Virus record (IMG/VR): IMGVR_UViG_3300041964_000150
Length of the DNA stretch: 20,000 nt
Direction: 5' to 3' (one strand)
Source: an uncultured virus (IMG/VR IMGVR_UViG_3300041964_000150)
Taxonomy: Duplodnaviria; Heunggongvirae; Uroviricota; Caudoviricetes
A program made the position numbers and the translations under genes. Below are positions 1 to 17,805 of the stretch, one piece after another; position 1 is the first letter of the stretch; the number at the start of each line of letters is the position of its first letter. Under the pieces are notes generated by a model, which ran no database searches, was not told where the DNA came from, and saw only the letters and a list, made by a program, of their open reading frames with translations.

Positions 1-587
1 TACCTTTACGCTCATAATGTGCCCGCAGCGCTGCTTTATTTTCCTCCACCTCAAAGAGGGCTTTATCTTGCTCGCGCACTGCCTGCTTCTGGACTTCTGG
101 ATCTTGACGCTGCGAAGCTTGAGCCGCCATCTTATCGAGCTGGATGAGCGATCGCCGCTGCATCAAATCGGTCGCCGCCTCTTTAAACAGCAGCAGTAAA
201 TCAACCTCTAAATCCAGCAGTGGATCACCCGTTGTACAGGCTGGCTGACGCTGCGGCGTAGCGTCGTCGCTTTCGCTGGCAGAACCAACCCTAGCAACTG
301 TTCTAAGCCGGAACGTTCTAGGGGCACCTCTCCGCCGACAAAAAGCACCAGCGCGATCGACTGGTGAGTGCTTCTGGCTCGAAGGCTGGCTCGGTCAGCG
401 CTGCCAGCTTGCGATAGTACATCTCCAGCAGCGGATACAAAGTCATTTCGAGTTCGAGCATCGATCGATCGATGCCCTGCAATTGCCCCTGCATCTCTTG
501 GTAGTAGGCAAACGCGATCGCATGGCGAGCCATTGGAATGAAGACTAGATCGAAGTTGCGATCGGTGTATTCGAGCCGGAAAAACAT
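1..587 (-). pseudogene. Probable tail assembly chaperone-like gene, split over three frames and running off the left edge
   Basis: Directly downstream of the putative tail tube. Frame 1 from ATG 587 (MFFRLEYTDRNFDLV...EPEALTSRSRWCF). Protein-like sequence continues in a second frame (FVGGEVPLERSGLEQLLG) and a third (GSASESDD...TTGDPLLDLEVDLLLLFKEAATDLMQRR...AHYERKG) to the window edge. Function inferred from position only. Confidence 0.45.
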
Positions 588-6531: not shown

Positions 6532-7866
6532 TTAGAGCGAGAGCATCAAGCAGGCTTTGCGGTAGTCGGTGATCTTCGCGCCCATCAGCAGCGAAGCGAC
6601 ACGCGACTCGCGGAAGCGAGTTACATCGAAGCTACCCGACCAAACTTGCAGCGCTACGTTTGTCCCTTCTTGTACCTGGGTGACGGCTGTTGCACCGCTG
6701 CCTTCGCTCGGTGGCTCCATCATGCGGGTTGAGTAAACCAGCGCTTCACGATGGTGTGCGATCGAGATCGAGGGAATCATCGGAATCGAGAACTTATCAA
6801 CAGCCGGATTGATTTGAGCCGCAACAAGCTGCTGACCCTTCATCGAGAACGGCACAATGTAGACGGTCTTGGTCGCCAGATTGACGCGCAAAACAATACC
6901 GTAAGCCTTGGCGTTTCCTGCGGTCGGACCAATGCGAGCAATGTCACCGACTGCAACGTTTTGCAGTGCGCCTGTCGTTCCCAGAGTCAGGACGATCGCG
7001 CCCAGTGAGGTGCGATTAGCGAAATCGCCTGCAACAAAGAAGGATTGACCACCGTTAGCCGTGTCTGAAACTGCGCTAGCGATATCAACAGCAGGTTGAT
7101 TAGAAGCCGCGCCATCCAGATCGGTGCTGCCAACCTGCGATCCAATGGTGTTCGAGCCGCCGACCATGAAGCCGTAGCGAGGGAGGAACTGACCGATCGG
7201 CAAGCCTTGCTGTAGCAGCGTCGAACCACTGGCAATTGCTTCGAGGTAGCCAGCATCGACCGGGGTTGCTTCACCCAGAAAATCGCCCTTCGCTGTCGAG
7301 CTGATTTCAGCAAAGCGATTACCAGCGGGGACGTTTTCGCGATCGAGTACCGTACCTGCATGAATCAATGCGCTGCGATCGAATGAGGAGAGTTCACCGC
7401 TGCCGTTTTCGTTGGCAACACAGGCGATCGGTGCGTTGGAGCTGAAGGCAACTTCACCCGTCGAACTGTGGGTTGCGGTGCGGAATTTGTTGTACAGGTG
7501 CCCGTCGAACTTCGTCGCGATGCTCTGTGCGATCTGATCTGAGAAGTCCCGAACGTAGGTTGAGATTTTGAAGTCGCTGCTGAAAAGTGGGAAGCCGTTC
7601 GCCAGCAGTTTCTCTAGGGTGAGGTTGCCGCTGAGGTAGCCTGGTTGCGTCAAGTTCAGACCCGATCCAGTGCGGGGGTCATACTCTTGAGCTTCCGAGA
7701 TTTTCGGGCGCCGGAATTTAACAGTATCGCCAACTTCAAAACTGCCCTTTTCGTAGTCGCCCATGCTAGAGCGAGGAAACAAGGACATTAGATTGAGCTG
7801 AGTGAGTGACCGCATGGCGATCAACTCTTCAGGGATTAATGCTGCGGGTGCAAAGGTAACGGTCAT
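6532..7866 (-). CDS. Major capsid protein, P22 coat (gp5)-like
   Basis: Likely start MTVTFAP at 7866. Motifs GDTVKFRRP, IAQSIATKFD, A..VLDRENVP..NRF, R.GF.V..SN and SIAHHREALVYSTR recall P22-coat family capsids. Lies downstream of the scaffold and has its own terminator. Confidence 0.8.
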   Translation of the reverse strand: MTVTFAPAALIPEELIAMRSLTQLNLMSLFPRSSMGDYEKGSFEVGDTVKFRRPKISEAQEYDPRTGSGLNLTQPGYLSGNLTLEKLLANGFPLFSSDFKISTYVRDFSDQIAQSIATKFDGHLYNKFRTATHSSTGEVAFSSNAPIACVANENGSGELSSFDRSALIHAGTVLDRENVPAGNRFAEISSTAKGDFLGEATPVDAGYLEAIASGSTLLQQGLPIGQFLPRYGFMVGGSNTIGSQVGSTDLDGAASNQPAVDIASAVSDTANGGQSFFVAGDFANRTSLGAIVLTLGTTGALQNVAVGDIARIGPTAGNAKAYGIVLRVNLATKTVYIVPFSMKGQQLVAAQINPAVDKFSIPMIPSISIAHHREALVYSTRMMEPPSEGSGATAVTQVQEGTNVALQVWSGSFDVTRFRESRVASLLMGAKITDYRKACLMLSL

Positions 7867-7946
7867 GAGGGATGTCCATAGGTATCGGTTTGTAGTGCGT
7901 TCCGCTGGGGACATCCCTTTTAAGGCAAGGGCAGCCTTTCTCTGCT

Positions 7947-9622: not shown

Positions 9623-11146
9623 ATGACTAATAATTTGCGTGGTGGTATTTTCCCCGATAAAATCTTTAACCTGCTAACTCAGGAGTTTGCAACCTGGGAA
9701 GAAGCGATCGCCGCTTCAGGTCACGACAGCGTTCGAGTTAGCTGGGCAATCCTGCCGCCTGTACCGATGGGTAGGCTCAACCCTGCATCTGCATACCCAG
9801 TTCGAGTAGCAACGCCGCAGAAACACTCAGCCGTTGTTGTGTTCAATGGCGAGTGTTATTACTGGCAACCGACCGCTGAGCGCGATCGCGAGGTGTTGGC
9901 GCAACTGGTAGCAGAGAAATTAGCCGAACGCGATCGCCTGATTCGATCGAGAAATGCAGTCCATCGCAGCATTAATGTTCTGACGGCGATAAGAGGTGAT
10001 GAGTCATGGATCGAGCCTGAGCAGTGCAATCTTCACAACTTCCAGCAGGCTTATGCCGCAATGAGTGACGATGCTTTGATCGCCGCAGCCGAGCGCGATC
10101 AACTGGCGCGGCTCTCAGCAACTCCCCCAGTGCTGTTGATTGCGGGGAGAGCAGCATTCGCATCTCACTGGAAGCGGCTACATCCCGAAGTTGCCCGACA
10201 CTGCCGCTATGTTTCAGATCCAAACCAGCTTCGCGGCCTGCGGCGTGATGCGATTCTTATCAGAATGAATCTGCACGAACAGAATCCGCTTTATCAATCT
10301 GGGTTACTCCATCGGTTTATGCCGATCGAGCAGTCCCCGATCGTTGAATACGATGAGCGCATTCCGGCTGTTGAAGCATGGCTCACCAACATCCTGCGAC
10401 AGCAACAGCCAGCACACGATCGCCGCATTACTCAACGGGAATGGAGGCACGATCGCCCTGCTGAGGTTACTTTTGCTTGGTGGGATGAGGCCGAAACTGA
10501 TGTAATGCGCCCTTCTCCAGAACAGCTCGAAGCGTCTTTAGAAGAACTCGATCGACTGTGCAGCAGTACGATCGCGCTTATAGTAGACGGTCGAAGGACA
10601 CCAGAGGGTCAAGCCTTGAACAACTTGACGCACCACCTGCGCACGTTTGGAGATCCACAAACCGCAGAATTTGCGATCGCCCTGCATGAGAAGTTTCGCA
10701 AAATCCAGATCATGACGCCTGCCGAATATCGGCAAATTAAGTGTGAAGCCTTTGCTGAGATGGAAGAATTAGCGGCAGAGATATCTGAGTTATCACCTGA
10801 GAGTGCGCGAGCTTCGCTGCCATCGCCAGGGCGAATGGTTCGATCGCAGGTTGTTGATCCGCCTGGGCTGACGATCGAGAATGCGGTCACCTCATATCTG
10901 CCTGAGTTCTGCCGCCGCTACAAGCCGTCGATCTGCTGCAAGGCCGCTTATGTGTTTATGCGACTTGAGTATGATTGCTATTTCACCTGCGGCGATTTCC
11001 ATGCAGTTCACTACCTGCGTGAGAGCGAATTAGAGGCCGCACGTTCTAGGGGCGCACTGCTCTGGCACCTGATTGAGGTAGTCGAGCAGGCAGCACAACA
11101 GCTCGCCTCAATGCAGAATCCGCAGTCAGGGAATACTGAGGGCTAA
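9623..11146 (+). CDS. Hypothetical protein
   Basis: 507-aa open frame filling the gap before the portal. No motif recognised. Confidence 0.65.
   Translation: MTNNLRGGIFPDKIFNLLTQEFATWEEAIAASGHDSVRVSWAILPPVPMGRLNPASAYPVRVATPQKHSAVVVFNGECYYWQPTAERDREVLAQLVAEKLAERDRLIRSRNAVHRSINVLTAIRGDESWIEPEQCNLHNFQQAYAAMSDDALIAAAERDQLARLSATPPVLLIAGRAAFASHWKRLHPEVARHCRYVSDPNQLRGLRRDAILIRMNLHEQNPLYQSGLLHRFMPIEQSPIVEYDERIPAVEAWLTNILRQQQPAHDRRITQREWRHDRPAEVTFAWWDEAETDVMRPSPEQLEASLEELDRLCSSTIALIVDGRRTPEGQALNNLTHHLRTFGDPQTAEFAIALHEKFRKIQIMTPAEYRQIKCEAFAEMEELAAEISELSPESARASLPSPGRMVRSQVVDPPGLTIENAVTSYLPEFCRRYKPSICCKAAYVFMRLEYDCYFTCGDFHAVHYLRESELEAARSRGALLWHLIEVVEQAAQQLASMQNPQSGNTEG
11129..11140 (+). promoter_or_regulatory. 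GGGMAnnCTRR box upstream of portal
   Basis: GGGAATACTGAG, 25 nt before ATG 11166. Confidence 0.5.
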
Positions 11147-11165
11147 GCCTTTACCCCTCAGAACA

Positions 11166-12725
11166 ATGCCTACGCTCGCTCAGTTACGCAGACGCCATCC
11201 TGAACACAAAGCCGACTTAGATCACTGGCAGTTATTGACCTCGATCGTTCAGGGTGGCCGCAGTATGGACGAGGCGGCCAAGCAAAAGCTGCTGCCCAAT
11301 CCAGACGGGCGACCGATGGAGGTTGTAAAAGAGCGGGTAAAGCTGGCGACCTATACCAATAAAATTGGTCCGATCCTCACCCGCTTCAACTCGCAGCTAT
11401 TCTCGCAGCCGCCGACCTTTAGCGGTTCAGACAAGCCATTTTGGGAAGTGTTTCGCAACGGTGGGGCGCTGCTGGACGACGACGACGACGCTCGCGCTAG
11501 CTTCAACACGCTGCTGAGCCGCGCCATGTTCGCCGCCCTGACCACAGGTAAAGCGATCGCCCAGATTGACACACGCATCGCATCAGGGGAAGCCAAATCG
11601 CTCGAAGAACAATCTGAAAACGGTGAGCTAGAGCCGTATGTAATCCTGCACCCCCGATCGGCGTTGTGGGATTGGAAGTCAGCCAGCAAGGGGTTTCAGT
11701 TTGCCAAGCTGCACGCTTGGCGAGTAGTTCAGGATACTTGGGACGCTGAACCAGTGGGTGAGCATGACTTCACGATTTTTCAGCGGCAGGCTGACGGTAC
11801 GATCATTGCTAGTCGCTACACGGTGCGCAAACGTCCGCGCCCAGGTGAAAAGCCGCCCGAAAATCCCTATTTCAGCCTCGATGACTGCAAGGATGAGGAT
11901 GTTGAAATTCTGCCGTTCAAGCTGGAAAACGGCACCACCTTGGAGAATCAGCAGATCTTTAGCGTCGGTGGGAAATTTGAGTTTCCGATCGTCTCACTGA
12001 CGTTGCCGCCAAGCCTCTGCATTGCCGATCAGTTATTCGAGTGCCAGAAAAGCTTTTTCAGCCAAACGGCTGCCCTTGAATATGCGATGTTCTGCAATAA
12101 CTACGCGATGCTGGTCGTGCTAGGGGTCGAGGACGAAGACGATGATCCGCTGCGTCGCAAAAAAGTAGGCGAAGGCTTCTACTTGACGCTGAAGCCTGGG
12201 CAGAGTTTGACCAGTTTCGAGCGCAGCGGCACCACGATCACAACGGCAATCAACTATCGCGCCGAAATCAAGCGCGACATTTACGATCAGCTCCAACAAA
12301 TTGCTATGTCTGCCGCTGATGGTGCGGCCATCATTGCGCGATCGGGCGAGTCGAAGCGGGAAGATCGTAGACCCGAACAGCTCTTGCTGTCTGAGTTTGG
12401 GCGATTGACAAAAGAATTTGCCGTTCAGATTTTGCGCTGTGCGGCGATCGCGCACGGTGAAGATGCGACCTGGAAAGCTGAAGGTTTAGACGACTTTATG
12501 GGCGAAGGCATTCTTGAAGAGATTGCCGACATTCAAGGCTTGCAACTACTGCCCATGCCCTCGCCCACATTCAAGCGAGAGACAATGAAATACCTTGCCC
12601 AGCGAGCCGCTAAGCGCTTCAGCTTCGCAAGTGACAAGACGACGACGATCCTCAAAGAATTGGACTCAGCCGCAGATGAAGAGTTTGAGCCGCCTGCACC
12701 AATGCCTGAGCCTGCTGCGGCTTAG
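11166..12725 (+). CDS. Portal protein
   Basis: 519 aa. N-terminal HPEH...W......GG, RVKLATYTN, ALTTGKAIAQID and SGESKRED motifs resemble SPP1-like/DUF4055-type portals. Acidic Pro-rich tail. Confidence 0.75.
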   Translation: MPTLAQLRRRHPEHKADLDHWQLLTSIVQGGRSMDEAAKQKLLPNPDGRPMEVVKERVKLATYTNKIGPILTRFNSQLFSQPPTFSGSDKPFWEVFRNGGALLDDDDDARASFNTLLSRAMFAALTTGKAIAQIDTRIASGEAKSLEEQSENGELEPYVILHPRSALWDWKSASKGFQFAKLHAWRVVQDTWDAEPVGEHDFTIFQRQADGTIIASRYTVRKRPRPGEKPPENPYFSLDDCKDEDVEILPFKLENGTTLENQQIFSVGGKFEFPIVSLTLPPSLCIADQLFECQKSFFSQTAALEYAMFCNNYAMLVVLGVEDEDDDPLRRKKVGEGFYLTLKPGQSLTSFERSGTTITTAINYRAEIKRDIYDQLQQIAMSAADGAAIIARSGESKREDRRPEQLLLSEFGRLTKEFAVQILRCAAIAHGEDATWKAEGLDDFMGEGILEEIADIQGLQLLPMPSPTFKRETMKYLAQRAAKRFSFASDKTTTILKELDSAADEEFEPPAPMPEPAAA

Positions 12726-12919
12726 CGAGTGCGGACGCTGCGGCGAGTCGGCTGAGAGGGGCTGCGGCGAACGCTGATGCGCGATCGTGCCGTTTCGATT
12801 GTGGTGCGATCGCGCTGCTGGGTGATGTTGGGCGCAACACTGGCGATCGTTCGTATCCAGAACGCTGCTAGATCAAGCTGAGTTTTGTTGTTCACTAGAA
12901 ATTCCTGCGAGTTTTCCAA
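12722..12919 (-). CDS. Small hypothetical protein
   Basis: 65-aa ORF overlapping the end of the large tail gene and converging on the portal stop. Confidence 0.35.
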   Translation of the reverse strand: MENSQEFLVNNKTQLDLAAFWIRTIASVAPNITQQRDRTTIETARSRISVRRSPSQPTRRSVRTR

Positions 12920-15579
12920 CTGTCGTCAATCAAAACCCCCAGCGTCAGCCGATTGAACCGCACACCGGGGACGGGTGGAGGTAGGTCCGGCGCCTGAATG
13001 GGTGGGGTTGCCTTCGTGGTCAGGCTATCGGCCTTGCGGCGACTGTGCAGCGTCACCGGAATTGTCCGATCGATGCCTGCTGTAATCTGCGTCGGTGCGC
13101 CTGTCACCAAGGGATAGCCGTCGATCATGCCCTCGAAGTTGTATTGATGCGCGATCGAGATAACGCGCGTCTTGATGCGTTGCGACTCGCAGCGGATGCG
13201 CAGGCGATCGAGCGGGCGAATGCGAGCGTTTGGCGGCACTGCAAACGAGTATTGGATCGACTGCTGAATGTCGCGAATCTTCAGGTCAGCTTTGGCCGCA
13301 GCAAGTGCCTGTTTAGACGAATAGCACTCATAGCTGACGCTGCCATTGATCGCGTCAGTCGCTTGTAGCCTGGGGTGCAGATGGTGAATTCAAGGTTACG
13401 GTCTTTGTCGCGATCGTCGTTATCTGCGTCGTCCGGTTCTGGTTCCTGCCGCTCTAGTGCAGGAGGTAAGCGCGTTGCAGGTGACGGGCGATCGTCGTGT
13501 TCAGTGAACGACTCATGCACCGGCTTTTTCTTTGAATCCGGCGCCCTGCGCTGAGTCTTCAATGTGCCACTCAACGAACCGATCGATTTCCTCCTCAGCG
13601 TTGTTAGTGAAGGTGAAGGGGATGCCATCAGATTTAGTGATCGTTTGCTTTGAAGGAACGATCGTGAGATAGGTATGCACCTTCGATTCTTCGCCAGTAG
13701 TGAACGGGCACAATCGCCCTTCAGGGCTGCTCGGATCGTCGTCAGGGTTGGCGATTGAAGCGAAAGAATTCTTGTAGGTGAACTCTTCGATCACAAACAT
13801 TGCAGGCGCATAGGTCGGGTCTTTCACCCAAGCCAAGCCAGAGGTGCCGTCATTGTTGCAGACCTTATAGCTGATCATCGCCTCGGATTCGTCCACATCG
13901 TTGTAGACGTTAGAAAAAGCTTCTAATGTGACGCGCGATCGTTCTCGCAGGGGCAGCTTTTGGAACTGGTAGAGCGCGAGGTAAGGGGCAGATTCGGGCG
14001 AGCCGTCACCATAGGCGATCGTTTCCAGTGCTTCGGACTCCTGTTTAAACCGTCTCATGCTCCATCCGGTTGTATCAAACCCCATTGCATAGCCGTAGAC
14101 AGGCTCATAGAGGTAGGTCACAACCTTGTAGGAAACCAGTCGCCAGAAGCCTGCCGGATTGCCTTTCAGCTCGCCGTCTGCATTCGCGATTTCCTTGGCC
14201 GTATAGCAAAATCCATAAATCAGCTCCTCATCCGTGAACGGCATCCCGTCTTCAGTCGTGCTGATTTTGAGCGTTTTCGTCGGACCGGACGCATCCCAAT
14301 TGAGATCCAGCGTCTTCAGCCAATCGGTCTGAGCGGGCATCTCTGCGGCATCGTCATCGCCCGATCGCAGCGTCCTGCGCACGCGAGGGCGCGGCACCCA
14401 TAGCGGCTTATCTGGTGAGTTGGGACGGTTCCAGCGTCTACCGCTGAGGCTCGCTCGCGGCGTCTGGTAGCTCAATCGAGCGTTAGTGTATTCGACCGCA
14501 TAACCTCGATAGTCCGGGCTGTTGCGGGCATCGCCCTGATAGGTGGTCTGCAAGTCGCGCACGCGATATCGCCAAATTGCCCCACGCTCGATCGATCGGG
14601 CAATCACCGCATCAAACTGGCTGTAATCAATCCAACAGTTGTTGATGCGCGAGCGAGCATTCGCCAGCTCACCCCAACTCACGGTTGCATCGAGCGGAGT
14701 ATCAGCAGGAACGTTCACACCCCAAAAGTCACCCTCGCAGCGGAACGGCACGCCGACCCGTGCGGCGATCGTTGCCACTGTGAGCCGTCCAGTCGTTGAT
14801 CCGGCTGTCGGGGAGTTGCCGTTACTGCAATCAGGGTCAGGCTCGATCGGTGAAATGCTGCTGCCGCTGCTGCTGCCCGATCGCAGCTTCACAGGTTGCT
14901 GGTAGCGAGTCGCCGCCCAGCGACCCGTGAGCGAAACGGCAACCAGATACAGACCTTCATCCGCCTTAAAAGTTGTGGTTAGGCTCGATACACTCCAGCC
15001 GCGATCGAATAACTCCAGTTCGGTGCCGTTGGCAAACCGCTGCTCAACACTGGCGATCGTCTCAGCCGTGCAGACCAGATTGAGTGAGCCAGAGGGCTGC
15101 TGCTCTAGTGATTCGCTCCACCGGATCTGCCCAAGCACGGGCAAGCCTGCCAGCGGTGCCAACACGCGCCCATCAATCAGGTTGGTGGGGATACGCTCGC
15201 TGCCGCCGATCGCCACGATCGGCAAGTCAGTAGAAACTGCAAGCGCACTGGCAATCGCGATCGTGCCGTCTGCATTTTCCACAAACTCGCTTGCCTGTGG
15301 ATTGTCGGGGTCATCAGCGAGCGTATAGGTTTGGCCTGCATGAACGATCGCATCGACCTGGGTAAGCGTCGGTGTGATGGTGGTTTGGCCGTTGCTGATG
15401 GTGGCCGCTGTCACCGTTGCGATCGCAGGTTCGAGCGGAATCGTCACATCGAGCGCTCGCGCCGATGCGCCCATATCGAGGTCAGCGATCGGGGTGGCCG
15501 CAGGTGCAGGTAGCAGGGCGATCGCACCTGCGGCAGGATGTTCTAGGGGCAGCGCGTTGGCTGGGGCAAGTCTCCACAT
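12895..15579 (-). pseudogene. Large tail/baseplate structural protein (~890 aa), interrupted by two compensating indels
   Basis: ORF 13513-15654 (likely start MWRLAP at 15579, 4 nt after the conserved box) ends ...GAGFKEKA. It continues in another frame VHESFTEHDDRPSPATR...ICTPGY, then returns to the original frame ATDAINGSVSYECY...SFAVPPNARIRP to the 12895 stop. Indels at about 13520 and 13362. Confidence 0.6.
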
Positions 15580-15583
15580 AATC

Positions 15584-15595
15584 CCTAGAATGCCC
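15584..15595 (-). promoter_or_regulatory. GGGMAnnCTRR box upstream of large tail gene
   Basis: GGGCATTCTAGG, 4 nt before ATG 15579. Confidence 0.55.
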
Positions 15596-15678
15596 AGGCG
15601 CCGAAGTTGATTTGATTGCGGCTGATCAGCGGCGAGCAACATTATGACAGGCAAGACAAGATCATCCGTGTCATCCCA

Positions 15679-15871
15679 CGATCGCCGCTTTCACTGTCTA
15701 CTGGACTATTCCAGTCGTCCACTAGACACCAGATTCAGATTTGTGTTTAAGCGCTCAAGGGGCGAATTTTTCACGGGTTGATGTTCGTTCCTCTGCCCGT
15801 GTCGATTTGCGTTTAAGTAAGCGATCGCCCCTTTCGCTGTCTACTAGACAATTCCAGTCGTCCACTAGATC
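15679..15871. repeat. Two direct copies of a 48-bp unit containing a 34-bp imperfect palindrome
   Basis: 15679-15726 vs 15822-15869, 44/48 identical. Core TGTCTACTGGAC-TATTCCAGTC-GTCCACTAGACA at 15695-15728. Confidence 0.9.
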
Positions 15872-15923
15872 GCGAAGTGGTGAAGCAGGGGCAACCGTCC
15901 CTACAGCTTAATTCAGCGATCGC

Positions 15924-16084
15924 TGTGCAGTGACAAATTAACTGTCATCATCAGTGACAGATTGATGTCGCTGGCGACAAATTAAATGTCATCGGTGACA
16001 GATTGATGTCGCTGGTGACAAATTAAGTGTCATCGGTGGCCTGTGCAGTGACAGATTAATGTCGTCGGTGACAGATTAATGTCG
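15924..16084 (+). repeat. Array of seven TnsB-binding-site-like repeats with two TGTGCAG termini (type V-K CAST end-like)
   Basis: YGACA-N6/7-TGTCR units at 15931, 15955, 15975, 15996, 16016, 16049 and 16069. TGTGCAG at 15924 and 16042. The repeat structure is directly visible; the likeness to the ShCAST end is from recall. Confidence 0.85.
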
Positions 16085-16086
16085 CT

Positions 16087-16174
16087 GGGCGATCTTATTT
16101 TTGCCAGCGACAATATGACGCCAGATCGCAACTCTTATTATCGATTCGAGCCAATTTCTGAAATAAGACTGCCC
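16087..16174. repeat. TCTTATT-core repeats: an inverted pair plus an internal copy
   Basis: GGGCGATCTTATTT (16087-16100), GCAACTCTTATTA (16128-16140) and inverted AAATAAGACTGCCC (16161-16174, 12/14 match to the first). Confidence 0.6.
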
Positions 16175-16182
16175 CTAGAACA

Positions 16183-17670
16183 TCAAGCCGCAATGCCCTT
16201 GATCGCTCGATCGTGCCGCAGTGTGCTGGCAACTTTCTTGTAGGGATAAAGCGTGTGCATCAGGTAGCCTGCTGCATCGCTGGGGTGGGTCCGCATTGAA
16301 TCGGATTTGTCGATCGCAACCTTGTCTTTGTCGAATGCCACCATTTCCCAATCTTTCACCAGCTCAGGGCAGCCAGCTAGATCGACATAAACGCGATTGT
16401 TTCTAAACAGACAATTGCAGGAATTGACGCGACTGAGAACGGGTGGATTCGCTTTCGGAATGTGCCGATGCAGGTTGCCTACTTCCACTGTGAAGCCGAT
16501 CGATCGGAACGCATCAAACACCAAATCCCAGTTTGTGATCCGAGAGACAGCGGTGCGAGCGTGGCCTGAAGCGTCACCATAGAGGTGAATTTCTGCTTGA
16601 TGGTCTGCCGCTGCAATCCAATCACAGAGGTCTGTTGCGAGTTCATGCGTGTCGCTATCGCAGATGTAGAACTCCTTGAAAAAGTGAATTTCATCGCCGC
16701 GCCGTTGGGATAGAACGCAGACCGCTGGCGAGTAGTTGAAGTCGAAGCCGATATGCAGATCGAGCAGTGGATCGTAGTCCAGCAGGGCAGAATCTTCGCC
16801 TTGCAGCGCGTGCGTAGGGCGATCGAAATATTTGTAGGTTCTGCCTACAACTGTGTTGATAAACGCGCCTTCGAGTTCCTGCGCGGCGAGTTCATCAGTG
16901 TAGTTCGCTTCGAGCGATCGCACGTAATCCTCACCCAGTCCGGCGATATTCTCACGGGTAGAGCAGGAATACATGACATAGAGCAGCTTGCGATCGTCTG
17001 CCCGCAGCGGATCAGCAAAGCGGTCATAGAGCCAGTTAAAGCCGTTGGGTGAGGTTGTCAGCATCCCTTGCCCTTTCATCGTGCCGGGTCCACGACCTAA
17101 CCGCCCGTCGAGCGTTTGAAAGGCTTGCTCTGAGGCATACGCCGCTTCATCGATCCAGGTCCAGCGAATTTGTAAGCCGCGAGCTGCCTGCGTGTTGCCC
17201 ATGAAGGAGTTGAGCGATAGCACATAGACGAAGGCACGCTCAGAGCCGATGTAGCAGCGCTGACGGTTGGCGATCGCGAGTGCGGTATCTTCGACGCTGG
17301 CCGCGCTCGGTTCTAAGGGGATGTTGAACTGCCGACAAACCTCAACCAGCGTCATGAGCGAGGCTCGCGAGAGCTGGCCGAAACTGTTGGCCGCAATCAA
17401 GCCGCGCGACTTTGGATCGAGCAATGCTCGCGAAATTGCCCAAGCTGCACCACAGTAAGACTTGCCGCTGCCAATGCCGCCAATCAGGGCACTAAATCGG
17501 CAATCATCTGGCTCGATCGAGGTTAGCGGGAAGCGCTCGAAGAAGCGGGCTTGTCCGCCTGGGTTCGGCTTGAACTCTTCCAGCAGCGTCGGACCGCGAT
17601 CGCCTAACTCAAACTCGATCGCCGCTCTAACTCGATATTCGTCCTGTAGTAGTCCGCCCCAGAATCCCAT
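16183..17670 (-). CDS. terL: Terminase large subunit
   Basis: Walker A GGIGSGKS, Walker B WTWIDEAA, motif III LTTSPNG, RNase H-like nuclease acidic motifs (IGFDFN, YGDASG, THPSDAAGY). Confidence 0.95.
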   Translation of the reverse strand: MGFWGGLLQDEYRVRAAIEFELGDRGPTLLEEFKPNPGGQARFFERFPLTSIEPDDCRFSALIGGIGSGKSYCGAAWAISRALLDPKSRGLIAANSFGQLSRASLMTLVEVCRQFNIPLEPSAASVEDTALAIANRQRCYIGSERAFVYVLSLNSFMGNTQAARGLQIRWTWIDEAAYASEQAFQTLDGRLGRGPGTMKGQGMLTTSPNGFNWLYDRFADPLRADDRKLLYVMYSCSTRENIAGLGEDYVRSLEANYTDELAAQELEGAFINTVVGRTYKYFDRPTHALQGEDSALLDYDPLLDLHIGFDFNYSPAVCVLSQRRGDEIHFFKEFYICDSDTHELATDLCDWIAAADHQAEIHLYGDASGHARTAVSRITNWDLVFDAFRSIGFTVEVGNLHRHIPKANPPVLSRVNSCNCLFRNNRVYVDLAGCPELVKDWEMVAFDKDKVAIDKSDSMRTHPSDAAGYLMHTLYPYKKVASTLRHDRAIKGIAA

Positions 17671-17702: not shown

Positions 17703-17739
17703 AATGTTCTAGGGGCAGGGGCGATCGAACCTTCAAAAT

Positions 17740-17805
17740 ATTATCCAGAAAATTGTTGACATATCCACAAATATATGGATAATAGAAGTATCAACTTAGT
17801 GGAGG
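17740..17805 (+). promoter_or_regulatory. Sigma70-type promoter with overlapping operator-like palindrome and RBS
   Basis: TTGACA 17756-17761, 16-nt spacer, GATAAT 17778-17783. TATCCA-N8-TGGATA at 17762-17781 plus an extra TATCCA at 17742. GGAGG at 17801-17805. Confidence 0.7.

What the first reader, a model, noticed from the sequence alone, without database searches (positions are those of the whole stretch)
15580..16182. Non-coding cassette stacking three unrelated families of end-like or recombination-site-like repeats
Seen: in an otherwise gene-dense region, this ~600-bp gap holds in series (i) two TGTCTAC-led palindromic units, (ii) the CAST-end-like array and (iii) TCTTATT repeats, whose minus strand also begins TGT (TGTTCTAGGGGCAGTCTTATTT from 16182). 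HIP1 or partial HIP1 sits at the junctions (15679, 15821, 15916 directly abutting TGT 15924, about 16089). Known: Tn7/Mu-family ends start with TG(T) followed by repeated transposase sites. Inference: a modular collection of binding sites for different DNA-acting proteins, perhaps a multi-transposon decoy board assembled by HIP1-mediated recombination.
Basis: partly seen in the sequence, partly recalled or inferred. Interest (0 to 1): 0.8.

Follow-up and report, generated by a model that had tools for sequence, protein, structure and literature searches.

The report
Solo CAST transposon end inside phage
The gap after a cyanophage's large-terminase gene holds a stand-alone, length-variable array of binding sites for the transposase of CRISPR-guided (type V-K) transposons, most likely a footprint of transposon attack that may now shield the phage, while the two other "modules" are ordinary phage intergenic sequence.

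Summary
The 603-bp gap (15580-16182) between terL and an ~890-aa phage gene is real. It is not a board of three transposon-end families.

- **Module ii (15924-16088)** is a genuine type V-K CAST right-end array. It has two TGTGCAG heads and seven ~20-nt TnsB-type sites, all on one strand, phased like the dense ends of verified Cas12k/TnsB elements. The window holds no partner end, and no transposase was found among the ORFs scanned.
- **Population evidence:** contigs of biocrust metagenomes from three studies link the array to unique phage flanks. They show 7-, 4- and 3-site alleles. The same samples hold true CAST ends whose first two sites match the phage's sites.
- **Analogues:** two other viral records carry solo, amplified arrays of the same sites without tnsB.
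- **Module i** is a real 48-nt repeat pair. It matched nothing in the 401 cyanobacterial genomes or the phage, plasmid and viral collections searched.
- **Module iii** is weak. Its "TGT end" is one copy of a 14-mer scattered through the phage.
- **HIP1** occurs at its background density.

Best reading: a retained footprint of CAST insertion that still binds TnsB. Cis target immunity is inferred, not shown.

The parts
16183..17670 (-). terL (large terminase, 495 aa). The gap lies downstream of it.
   Evidence: Pfam Terminase_6N E 2e-18; PHROG 2, terminase large subunit, E 1e-34; 98 homologues at E <= 1e-10.
15580..16182 (.). 603-bp non-coding gap. It is the AT-richest stretch locally.
   Evidence: Boundaries. 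No ORF over 56 aa inside. GC is 0.47-0.49 here against 0.58-0.61 to the left and 0.52-0.59 in terL.
15679..15726 (+). Module i, copy A: a 48-nt unit starting with a partial HIP1 and holding a 12-nt-arm near-palindrome (TGTCTAC from 15695).
   Evidence: The region folds better than shuffles on both strands (z -3.8 and -4.5).
15822..15869 (+). Module i, copy B: 92% identical to copy A, with the last 18 nt identical.
   Evidence: Present in metagenome contigs X1 (15315-15890) and X2 (15569-15948) at phage-level depth.
15924..16036 (+). Module ii, part 1: head TGTGCAG (15924-15930) plus five TnsB-type sites starting at 15932, 15956, 15976, 15997 and 16017. It includes a 41-nt tandem duplication (15948-15988 / 15989-16029, 93%).
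   Evidence: Same architecture as the dense (right) ends of verified V-K CASTs.
16042..16088 (+). Module ii, part 2: second head TGTGCAG (16042-16048) plus two sites (16050, 16070), in the same orientation as part 1.
   Evidence: The second head is absent from the 3- and 4-site alleles seen in runs X1, X2 and X4.
16077..16115 (.). 12-nt inverted repeat formed by the right half of the last site and a lone inverted half-site.
   Evidence: Inverted repeat I10, 92% complementary. It is not a full inverted TnsB site: searches find no minus-strand site.
16093..16168 (.). Module iii: TCTTATT three times (two direct, one inverted).
   Evidence: not significant window-wide (14 of 200 shuffles). No match in 401 genomes.
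16169..16192 (-). Right arm of a 24-nt inverted repeat. Its inner 14 nt are the dispersed phage motif TGTTCTAGGGGCAG, and it overlaps the terL stop.
   Evidence: I1, 22 of 24 complementary with 15529-15552. The 14-mer is exact at 15539 (+), 16182 (-) and 17705 (+); the core is also at 316 and 11044.
15529..15552 (+). Left arm of the 24-nt inverted repeat, inside codons 10-17 of the downstream gene.
12895..15579 (-). Downstream phage gene of about 890 aa, function unknown. In the window it is split into three ORFs (13513-15579, 13281-13628, 12895-13239).
   Evidence: PHROG 15468, E 4e-65. Homologues are 886-913 aa. Metagenome contigs differ from the window by single-base indels at 13520 and 13359. 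The Atlas lead is viral hypothetical or tail-like proteins.

Best explanation

**Shown.**
- 15924-16088 has the sequence, head and site phasing of a V-K CAST right end.
- It stands alone in the window: no inverted partner end, and no transposase domain among the ORFs scanned against Pfam.
- It is physically part of the phage genome in independent metagenomes.
- It varies between 3, 4 and 7 sites.
- Real CAST ends with near-identical sites live in the same communities.

**Inferred origin.** A host CAST inserted into this AT-rich gap at least once, either RNA-guided or by the RNA-independent pathway that prefers AT-rich DNA. A roughly 72-kb headful phage cannot carry a 20-kb insert, so only derivatives that deleted everything except the right-end array survived. 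Unequal recombination among the 20-nt sites then produced the alleles and the second head.

**Inferred consequence.** In a host with a cognate CAST, TnsB will occupy the array. TnsB triggers TnsC filament disassembly, so the array should confer cis target immunity on the phage DNA. I cannot decide whether that is selected or a by-product.

**Other modules.** Module i (the 48-nt repeat pair) and module iii are the phage's own sequence, most likely intercistronic hairpins or operator-like sites. They are not mobile-element ends.
For: **Identity of the array.**
- Seven sites, one strand, one place.
- Five verified CAST right ends show sites at 9/30/49-50/69/97 from the terminus, and a left end at 9/29/124/154.
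- The window shows 9/33/53/74/94/127/147. In the allele lacking ATC at 15945 (seen in X1 and X3) this becomes 9/30/50/71/91/124/144. The 4-site allele gives 9/30/50/70 and the 3-site allele 9/30/50.
- The comparators are true V-K CASTs. The ORF beside the dense end matches ShCas12k at E 9e-257. TnsB matches ShCAST TnsB at E 5e-289. TniB and TniQ are present.
- ShCAST RE has 5 TnsB sites and LE has 3 (PMC9527255, passages).
- 32 of 401 cyanobacterial genomes match, and 39 of 40 match rows fall within 15923-16086.

**The array is solo.** No minus-strand site exists in the 20 kb. No transposase domain appears among the 18 ORFs scanned against Pfam. Relatives' contigs are 72.3-75.3 kb against 72.5 kb here, which leaves no room for an intact CAST (inference).

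**The array is real in the phage.**
- An X4 contig of 522 nt joins roughly 15737-15950 to 16048-16335.
- An X2 contig of 418 nt covers 15569-15948 and then jumps to 16046.
- X1 (252 nt) and X3 (196 nt) contigs span the long form.

**Cognate CASTs co-occur.** Depth in bin 15944-16127 is 4-10 times that of the flanks. Loose ends reading '...TGTACAGT' precede 15976 in 5 (X1), 3 (X2) and 4 (X3) contigs.

**Not a conserved phage feature.** No sites were found in 104 TerL-related loci totalling 1.0 Mb.

**Plausible route and mechanism.**
- AT-rich preference of RNA-independent V-K insertion (PMC10370016, abstract and passages).
- Insertion 60-66 bp from the PAM, and TnsB-driven TnsC disassembly as the basis of target immunity (PMC9798831, introduction passage).
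- Guides aimed at phages and plasmids (PMC11406308, Figure 3 legend).
Against: - No other CAST fragment survives: no crRNA-like repeat, no left end, no recognisable 5-bp target duplication. The insertion-plus-deletion history is therefore inferred, not traced.
- The two heads in direct orientation, 118 nt apart, are not the simple product of one insertion and one deletion.
- All seven sites fit the consensus exactly, and the array exceeds a natural end (7 against 5 sites). This fits selection better than neutral decay.
- Two other viral records carry amplified solo arrays. One has no TGT head at all and sits, as here, downstream of terL with its sites pointing at terL. This hints at function or at a common targeting rule rather than accident.
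- Both heads read TGTGCAG, whereas the cyanobacterial ends printed and 35 read mostly TGTACAG and none read TGTGCAG.
- TnsB binding and immunity were not tested.
- The closest relative (TerL 79%) could not be inspected.
Confidence: 0.55

Rival explanations
1. **Selected anti-transposon decoy.** The array is kept and amplified because TnsB bound to it disassembles TnsC and makes the phage genome immune to insertion by the host's V-K CAST. Phages and plasmids would acquire such arrays from failed insertions and then expand them.
For: - All 7 sites are intact and there are more sites than in a natural end.
- The array persists across three studies dated 2017-2025 with copy-number alleles.
- Cognate CAST ends occur in the same samples.
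- There are two independent analogues without tnsB (G001 as positive control). Record G404 has a 178-nt unit repeated 2.5 times, each with a double head and 4-5 sites. Record G405 has 8+1 exact sites plus a second site class.
- In both records the sites are confined to one locus.
- Target immunity is attributed to V-K systems (PMC11406308 section 2.8; PMC9798831 introduction).
Against: - No experiment shows that TnsB sites alone immunise a V-K target, or over what distance.
- Tandem site arrays expand and contract neutrally.
- The array is absent from 104 TerL relatives.
- Only 2 of 7 hits in 2.9 million viral contigs are true analogues.
- It is unknown whether CAST insertion is a real cost to phages.
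Confidence: 0.25
2. **The phage's own binding-site array.** The sites would be a pac site for small terminase, an origin with iterons, or operators for a phage regulator, and would only resemble TnsB sites.
For: - The array lies next to terL here and next to terS-terL in G405.
- In G404 it lies next to a TrfA-like initiator and ParA.
- The G405 array has no TGT head and includes inverted sites.
Against: - The exact CAST terminal heptamer (one base changed) appears twice, with right-end phasing.
- No such sites occur within 7 kb of terL in 104 relatives with 21-67% TerL identity.
- Site number varies from 3 to 7 within the population.
- The sites equal the terminal sites of co-resident CASTs.
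Confidence: 0.08
3. **Still-mobile miniature element.** The array would be part of a non-autonomous mini-transposon moved in trans by a CAST's TnsB/TnsC.
For: - TGT heads are present.
- Abundant short TnsB-ended repeat families exist in Nostoc genomes.
- A lone inverted half-site lies at 16104-16115.
Against: - No inverted end with head exists in the 20 kb.
- No matching 5-bp duplication flanks 15924-16182 or 15539-16182 (read).
- The flanks (modules i and iii) are single-copy at phage depth in the metagenomes.
Confidence: 0.05
4. **First reader's model.** The gap would be a board of three different transposon-end or recombination-site families stitched together by HIP1-mediated recombination.
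For: - Three repeat-bearing segments lie in series.
- Full HIP1 sites lie at 15821 and 15916, the latter abutting the head.
- G405 shows two site classes side by side.
Against: - Modules i and iii match no element in 401 genomes, nor in viral, phage or plasmid collections.
- They show no extra depth.
- The module iii 'end' is a dispersed phage 14-mer.
- HIP1 density equals background.
Confidence: 0.03

Closest known systems
[quoted passage not shown]
   Same: It has a terminal TGT-led heptamer followed at once by ~20-nt TnsB sites packed at 20-21-nt steps (9/30/50/70). In nature the dense end lies beside cas12k. ShCAST RE has 5 sites (PMC9527255).
   Different: - The head reads TGTGCAG, not TGTACAG.
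- There are 7 sites and a second head in direct orientation.
- No left end; no tnsB, tnsC, tniQ or cas12k among the window ORFs scanned; no crRNA-like repeat noticed by eye.
- It sits in a phage structural operon and varies in length within the population.
Target immunity of Tn7 and phage Mu (transposase-binding sites in cis repel the AAA+ target protein)
   Same: An array of transposase sites on a DNA molecule is the known signal. For V-K, TnsB disassembles TnsC filaments (PMC9798831 introduction; PMC11406308 section 2.8).
   Different: In the known cases the sites belong to a resident copy of the transposon and protect the transposon's own host DNA. Here they would protect a phage that carries no transposon. 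This was not tested.
PAST: one-ended, protelomerase-associated relatives of V-K CAST (bioRxiv 10.1101/2024.11.13.623437; abstract and sections read)
   Same: A single TnsB-type end with no second end, in cyanobacteria.
   Different: PASTs keep tnsB-tnsC-tniQ and a protelomerase and sit at hairpin telomeres. No such gene was found in the window ORFs scanned. The neighbouring 713-aa ORF has no Pfam or PDB match.
MITEs shared between phages and their hosts (PMC11602168; search listing and abstract only)
   Same: Host mobile-element DNA without a transposase, found in a viral genome.
   Different: A MITE has two inverted ends and many copies. This array has one orientation only, and its flanks are single-copy.
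RNA anti-CRISPRs: solitary CRISPR repeat units carried by phages (PMC10651486; abstract only)
   Same: The logic is similar: a phage carries a mimic of the nucleic-acid part of a host system and so titrates or misleads its protein.
   Different: Those act as RNA against Cas proteins. Here DNA sites would act on a transposase/ATPase pair. This is an analogy only.

Membership tests
Type V-K CAST transposon end (TnsB-bound, Tn7 family) | Terminal 5'-TGT-led sequence followed directly by the first TnsB site | tested here: met
   TGTGCAGTGACA at 15924 and 16042. It differs by one base from the TGTACAGTGAC found at most of the cyanobacterial ends printed.
Type V-K CAST transposon end (TnsB-bound, Tn7 family) | Array of ~20-nt sites with right-end phasing | tested here: met
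   Five verified right ends give 9/30/49-50/69/97. Window alleles give 9/30/50(/70) and 9/30/50/71/91/124/144.
Type V-K CAST transposon end (TnsB-bound, Tn7 family) | Binding by a V-K TnsB | not testable with these tools
   Needs a gel-shift or footprint assay with a cognate TnsB.
Complete V-K CAST element | Second, inverted end within reach | tested here: not met
   No minus-strand site in the 20 kb. The rest of the 72.5-kb contig was not visible.
Complete V-K CAST element | tnsB, tnsC, tniQ and cas12k genes | tested here: not met
   No such domains in the 18 window ORFs scanned. Comparators L154 and L155 have them.
Complete V-K CAST element | 5-bp target-site duplication | tested here: not met
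   Flanks ATCGC / TCAAG for 15924-16182, and CAGGA / TCAAG for 15539-16182, do not match (read).
MITE / non-autonomous mini-transposon | Two terminal inverted repeats and multiple genomic copies | tested here: not met
   One orientation only. Modules i and iii sit at single, phage-level depth and are absent from 401 genomes.
PAST (one-ended telomeric relatives of V-K CAST) | tnsBCQ plus protelomerase next to a hairpin telomere | tested here: not met
   No such domains. The 713-aa neighbour has no Pfam, NCBIfam or PDB match. The array lies between structural genes.
Phage packaging site (pac/cos) | Conserved with its terminase lineage; genome ends map there | tested here: inconclusive
   Absent near terL in 104 relatives. 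Termini cannot be read from contigs.
Invertible DNA segment | Inverted repeats flanking the segment, with both orientations present in the population | tested here: inconclusive
   A 24-nt inverted repeat brackets the gap. Contigs, the only data on hand, can miss rare forms.
HIP1-bounded recombination cassette | HIP1 enriched at module borders above background | tested here: not met
   32 HIP1 per 20 kb, one per 625 nt. Two full sites in 603 nt is the expected number.

The most novel reading that the evidence does not exclude
Phages and plasmid-like elements of cyanobacteria keep and amplify stand-alone arrays of V-K CAST TnsB-binding sites as a cis-acting 'immunity badge'. The mobile element passes for DNA that already carries the transposon, so TnsC is stripped off and RNA-guided or untargeted CAST insertion is blocked. 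This would be an anti-transposon counter-defence by mimicry of a transposon end, and it would imply that CASTs act as a real burden on phages.
Probability: 0.22. Interest if true: 0.85.

Novelty: new variant of a known kind. Interest (0 to 1): 0.6.

Why it matters
CASTs are thought to aim their array guides at phages and plasmids, but natural traces of such encounters are scarce. This gap gives a concrete case. A V-K right end is embedded in a roughly 72-kb cyanophage, alive in soil-crust populations over several years, and changing in site number. Two further viral records carry amplified solo arrays.

At the least, this documents CAST-phage contact and shows what survives it. If the arrays confer target immunity, they would be the first known counter-measure of a mobile element against RNA-guided transposition. 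They would also be a simple DNA part for protecting chosen replicons from V-K CAST tools. My literature searches found no paper describing transposon-end arrays in phages or their use as decoys.

Tried and rejected
- **Whole genome of the window:** none is held.
- **TerL as a single query:** no loci in genome contigs or viral contigs. An alignment of 19 homologues was needed.
- **RNA and signal scans:** Rfam gave no match at gathering score and only two chance-level rows at E 3-5. No tRNA. No sigma-70-like promoter in 15300-16400, and four weak terminator-like sites against about 1 expected.
- **Similarity searches of the gap:** none in GenBank phages or plasmids.
- **Module i 18-mer in viral contigs:** 0 hits.
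- **The 14-mer in viral contigs:** 83 single hits, which I take as chance level (my own estimate). Uninformative.
- **Relatives of the 713-aa ORF in viral contigs:** none.
- **Protelomerase or telomere-site idea** for the 713-aa ORF and module i, prompted by the PAST preprint. Dropped: no Pfam, NCBIfam or PDB match, and the Atlas leads point to viral hypothetical or tail-like clusters.
- **Inversion of the gap through the 24-nt inverted repeat:** no strand-changing joint was listed, but contigs cannot exclude it.
- **CAST spacers against the phage:** blastn-short of the window against 0.70 Mb of fetched cyanobacterial loci gave only HIP1-type 17-26-nt matches. The sample is far too small to count.
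- **A 23-nt inverted match between 1522-1544 and 16139-16161:** not extended on alignment.
- **TTCTAGGGGCA in the G405 gap:** 3 hits in 1.76 Mb against 0.84 expected, so I treat it as possible chance.
- **Expression:** no RNA holder was listed.
- **PF09299 search of the viral records:** rang nowhere, not even in the controls. I replaced it with a TnsB protein query that included a positive control.

Full report
**Setting.** The window is part of a tailed cyanophage.
- terL lies at 16183-17670 on the minus strand (Pfam Terminase_6N). A portal-like gene lies at 11166-12725 and a major head gene at 6532-7914. HIP1 occurs 32 times in the 20 kb.
- The TerL protein sits on a 72,526-bp contig. Its relatives sit on contigs of 72.3-75.3 kb, or in MAGs and genomes of filamentous cyanobacteria.
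- No whole genome is held for the window.
- The gene downstream of the gap starts at ATG 15579: three homologues of 886-913 aa all begin at the window's residue M26. It holds no ORF above 56 aa.
- It is the AT-richest stretch between 12 and 17.6 kb (GC 0.47-0.49).

**The observation.**
- *Module i* is real. It is a 48-nt direct repeat at 15679-15726 and 15822-15869, 92% identical, whose last 18 nt are identical and occur nowhere else in the window. Each unit has dyad symmetry, good in copy A and poor in copy B (and direct reading). The region folds better than shuffles on both strands (z -3.8 and -4.5).
- *Module ii* is the strong feature. Seven sites GACA[AG]ATT(N2-3)TGTC lie on the + strand at 15932-16083, with none elsewhere; 0 of 200 shuffles reach these counts. 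There are two TGTGCAG heads (15924, 16042) and a 41-nt tandem duplication.
- *Module iii* is weak. TCTTATT occurs three times in the gap and four times in the window, and 14 of 200 shuffles do as well.
- The minus-strand 'TGT' start at 16182 is an exact copy of the 14-mer TGTTCTAGGGGCAG. This 14-mer also lies at 15539 (+) and 17705 (+), and its core recurs at 316 and 11044. It is a dispersed phage motif that happens to bracket both the gap and terL. It is not a transposon terminus.
- HIP1 at the 'junctions' is at background density.

**What module ii is.**
Most are titled Nostoc or other cyanobacteria.
- I fetched the elements behind the two closest dense arrays. One encodes TnsB (E 5e-289 to ShCAST TnsB), TniB and TniQ, with restriction-modification cargo. 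In the other, the 633-aa ORF beside the dense end is Cas12k (E 9e-257). These are bona fide V-K CASTs.
- Their dense ends place sites at 9/30/49-50/69/97 from the terminus, and a sparse end at 9/29/124/154. This fits the 5 right-end and 3 left-end TnsB sites reported for ShCAST (PMC9527255, passages).
- The window's array follows the right-end pattern.
- Of 401 cyanobacterial genomes searched with 15655-16182, 32 matched. Of the 40 match rows, 39 lie inside 15923-16086. The other is a marginal hit at 15864-15902.
- Modules i and iii matched nothing there. They also matched nothing in GenBank phages, plasmids or IMG/VR.

**It is solo, and it is really in the phage.**
- No site in the opposite orientation exists in the 20 kb.
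- No transposase, TniB, TniQ or Cas12k domain appears among the window's larger ORFs.
- Runs holding the stretch are biocrust metagenomes, plus a small-share sediment run that I did not lay. I laid Logan contigs from four biocrust runs of three studies.
- These contigs tie the array to unique flanks. One 522-nt contig joins the module i side to terL across a 4-site allele. One 418-nt contig covers 15569-15948 and continues at 16046, giving a 3-site allele. Contigs of 252 and 196 nt span the 7-site form, minus an ATC at 15945.
- Every allele keeps the canonical phasing. That is expected anyway from recombination between in-phase repeats.
- The depth bin holding the array is 4-10 times deeper than its neighbours. 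Contigs that match only 15976-16014 are preceded by '...TGTACAGT'.
- So real CAST ends, whose first two sites are 87-92% identical to the phage's third and fourth sites, live in the same samples.
- Modules i and iii show phage-level depth only, so they are not multi-copy elements there.

**It is not a conserved phage feature.**
- I fetched 104 loci around TerL relatives (21-67% identity, 1.0 Mb).
- None has a single TnsB-type site, a module i core or the 16-mer GATGTTCTAGGGGCAG that contains the 14-mer motif. None has the ~890-aa gene.
- Gene order and orientation around terL differ widely among them.
- This argues against a pac site or origin tied to this terminase lineage. Termini themselves could not be tested with contigs.

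**Analogues elsewhere.** A scan of IMG/VR for two adjacent sites gave 7 loci, of which two are true analogues.
- *Record G404* (72 kb, about 45% complete) has a 178-nt unit repeated 2.5 times. Each unit holds a TGCACAG head with one site, followed directly by a TGTACAG head with four sites. That is the same double-head layout as here. It lies beside a TrfA-like initiator and ParA.
- *Record G405* (121 kb, 98% complete) has 8+1 exact sites plus a second class sharing the right half-site, and no TGT head. They lie in the gap downstream of terS-terL, with the sites pointing at terL as in the window.
- Neither record encodes a TnsB; genome G001 served as positive control. In both, the sites are confined to one locus.

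**Mechanism.**
- *Shown:* a V-K right-end array, solo, polymorphic, co-occurring with cognate CASTs.
- *Inferred origin:* CAST insertion into this AT-rich gap. V-K systems insert 60-66 bp from a PAM (PMC9798831). They also insert without RNA into AT-rich DNA (PMC10370016), and their array guides are described as aimed at phages and plasmids (PMC11406308, Figure 3 legend). Deletion of all but the end would follow, then unequal exchange among sites.
- *Inferred consequence:* TnsB occupies the array and, by disassembling TnsC, gives cis target immunity (PMC9798831; PMC11406308 section 2.8).
- *Confidence:* I put 0.55 on 'retained footprint that binds TnsB, benefit undecided'. I put 0.25 on 'selected decoy'. 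The intact sites, the excess over a natural end and the two amplified analogues pull towards the latter. The lack of any assay and the instability of tandem sites pull against it.
- *Unexplained:* how two heads came to lie 118 nt apart in direct orientation, here and in G404.

**Modules i and iii.** Their function is not established. My best guess (inference) is that they are intercistronic hairpins or operator-like sites of the terL operon. They are single-copy, phage-specific and, for module i, present in the variant phages of runs X1 and X2.

**Literature.**
- I read passages of PMC9527255, PMC11406308 (plus its section 2.8), PMC9798831, PMC10370016, PMC11656645 and PMC11300857.
- I read the outline, one section and passages of bioRxiv 10.1101/2024.11.13.623437.
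- PMC11602168 and PMC10651486 were seen as search listings with abstracts only.
- Six searches found no report of transposon-end arrays in phage genomes or of their use against CASTs. Subscription-only papers, such as the original ShCAST report, were not searchable.

**Verdict.** The interesting core is narrower than claimed: one module, not three.

Noticed in passing
window 12895-15579 (-): The gene downstream of the gap is about 890 aa in relatives (886-913 aa). In the window it is split into three ORFs. Metagenome contigs of three runs differ from the window by single-base indels at 13520 and 13359, so the window may carry assembly errors or a pseudogene.
   Followed up: partly
window 314-327, 11044-11054, 15539-15552, 16169-16182 (-), 17705-17718: The 14-mer TGTTCTAGGGGCAG (core TTCTAGGGGCA) is dispersed through the phage. 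Two inverted copies bracket terL, and a 24-nt inverted repeat brackets the gap. Its function is unknown; it may be a regulatory or recombination site.
   Followed up: partly
window 9623-12725 (+) against its neighbours (-); loci L160-L204: The portal gene and a 507-aa ORF lie on the opposite strand to terL and the head genes. Among TerL relatives the relative orientation of the terL, portal and capsid modules differs from phage to phage.
   Followed up: partly
L377 (record G404, 54680-55053): A 72-kb viral record holds a 178-nt tandem unit (2.5 copies), each with a TGCACAG head plus one site followed directly by a TGTACAG head plus four sites. It lies next to TrfA-like and ParA genes, with no tnsB in the record.
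   Followed up: partly
L379 3957-4680 (record G405, 115.2-115.9 kb): A 121-kb, 98% complete phage has at least 13 direct and 3 inverted TnsB-like sites of two classes (GTGACAAATTA.. and TTCTCAAATTA..). They have no TGT head and lie in the gap downstream of terS-terL.
   Followed up: partly
L003-L119 (many Nostoc loci): A very common short family begins with the CAST head and two sites and then continues with a conserved ~120-nt sequence. Several copies occur per genome (for example two copies 1.4 kb apart in L010/L011). It looks like a non-autonomous derivative of Tn7-like elements.
   Followed up: no
L124, L125, L264, L265, L269, L284 (flank of the dense end): A conserved GTCCAT lies about 9-14 nt outside the right end of V-K CASTs from different genomes. 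It is possibly part of the shared attachment site.
   Followed up: no
proteins P0011, P0014, P0016, P0035, P0039, P0042, P0051, P0061: Eight TerL homologues of this phage group are 602-851 aa long and carry an intein domain (PF14890). The window's TerL has none.
   Followed up: no
window 17756-17785: A TTGACA followed about 17 nt later by a TA-rich hexamer lies upstream of the + strand small ORFs that diverge from terL, about 38 nt after a copy of the 14-mer motif.
   Followed up: no
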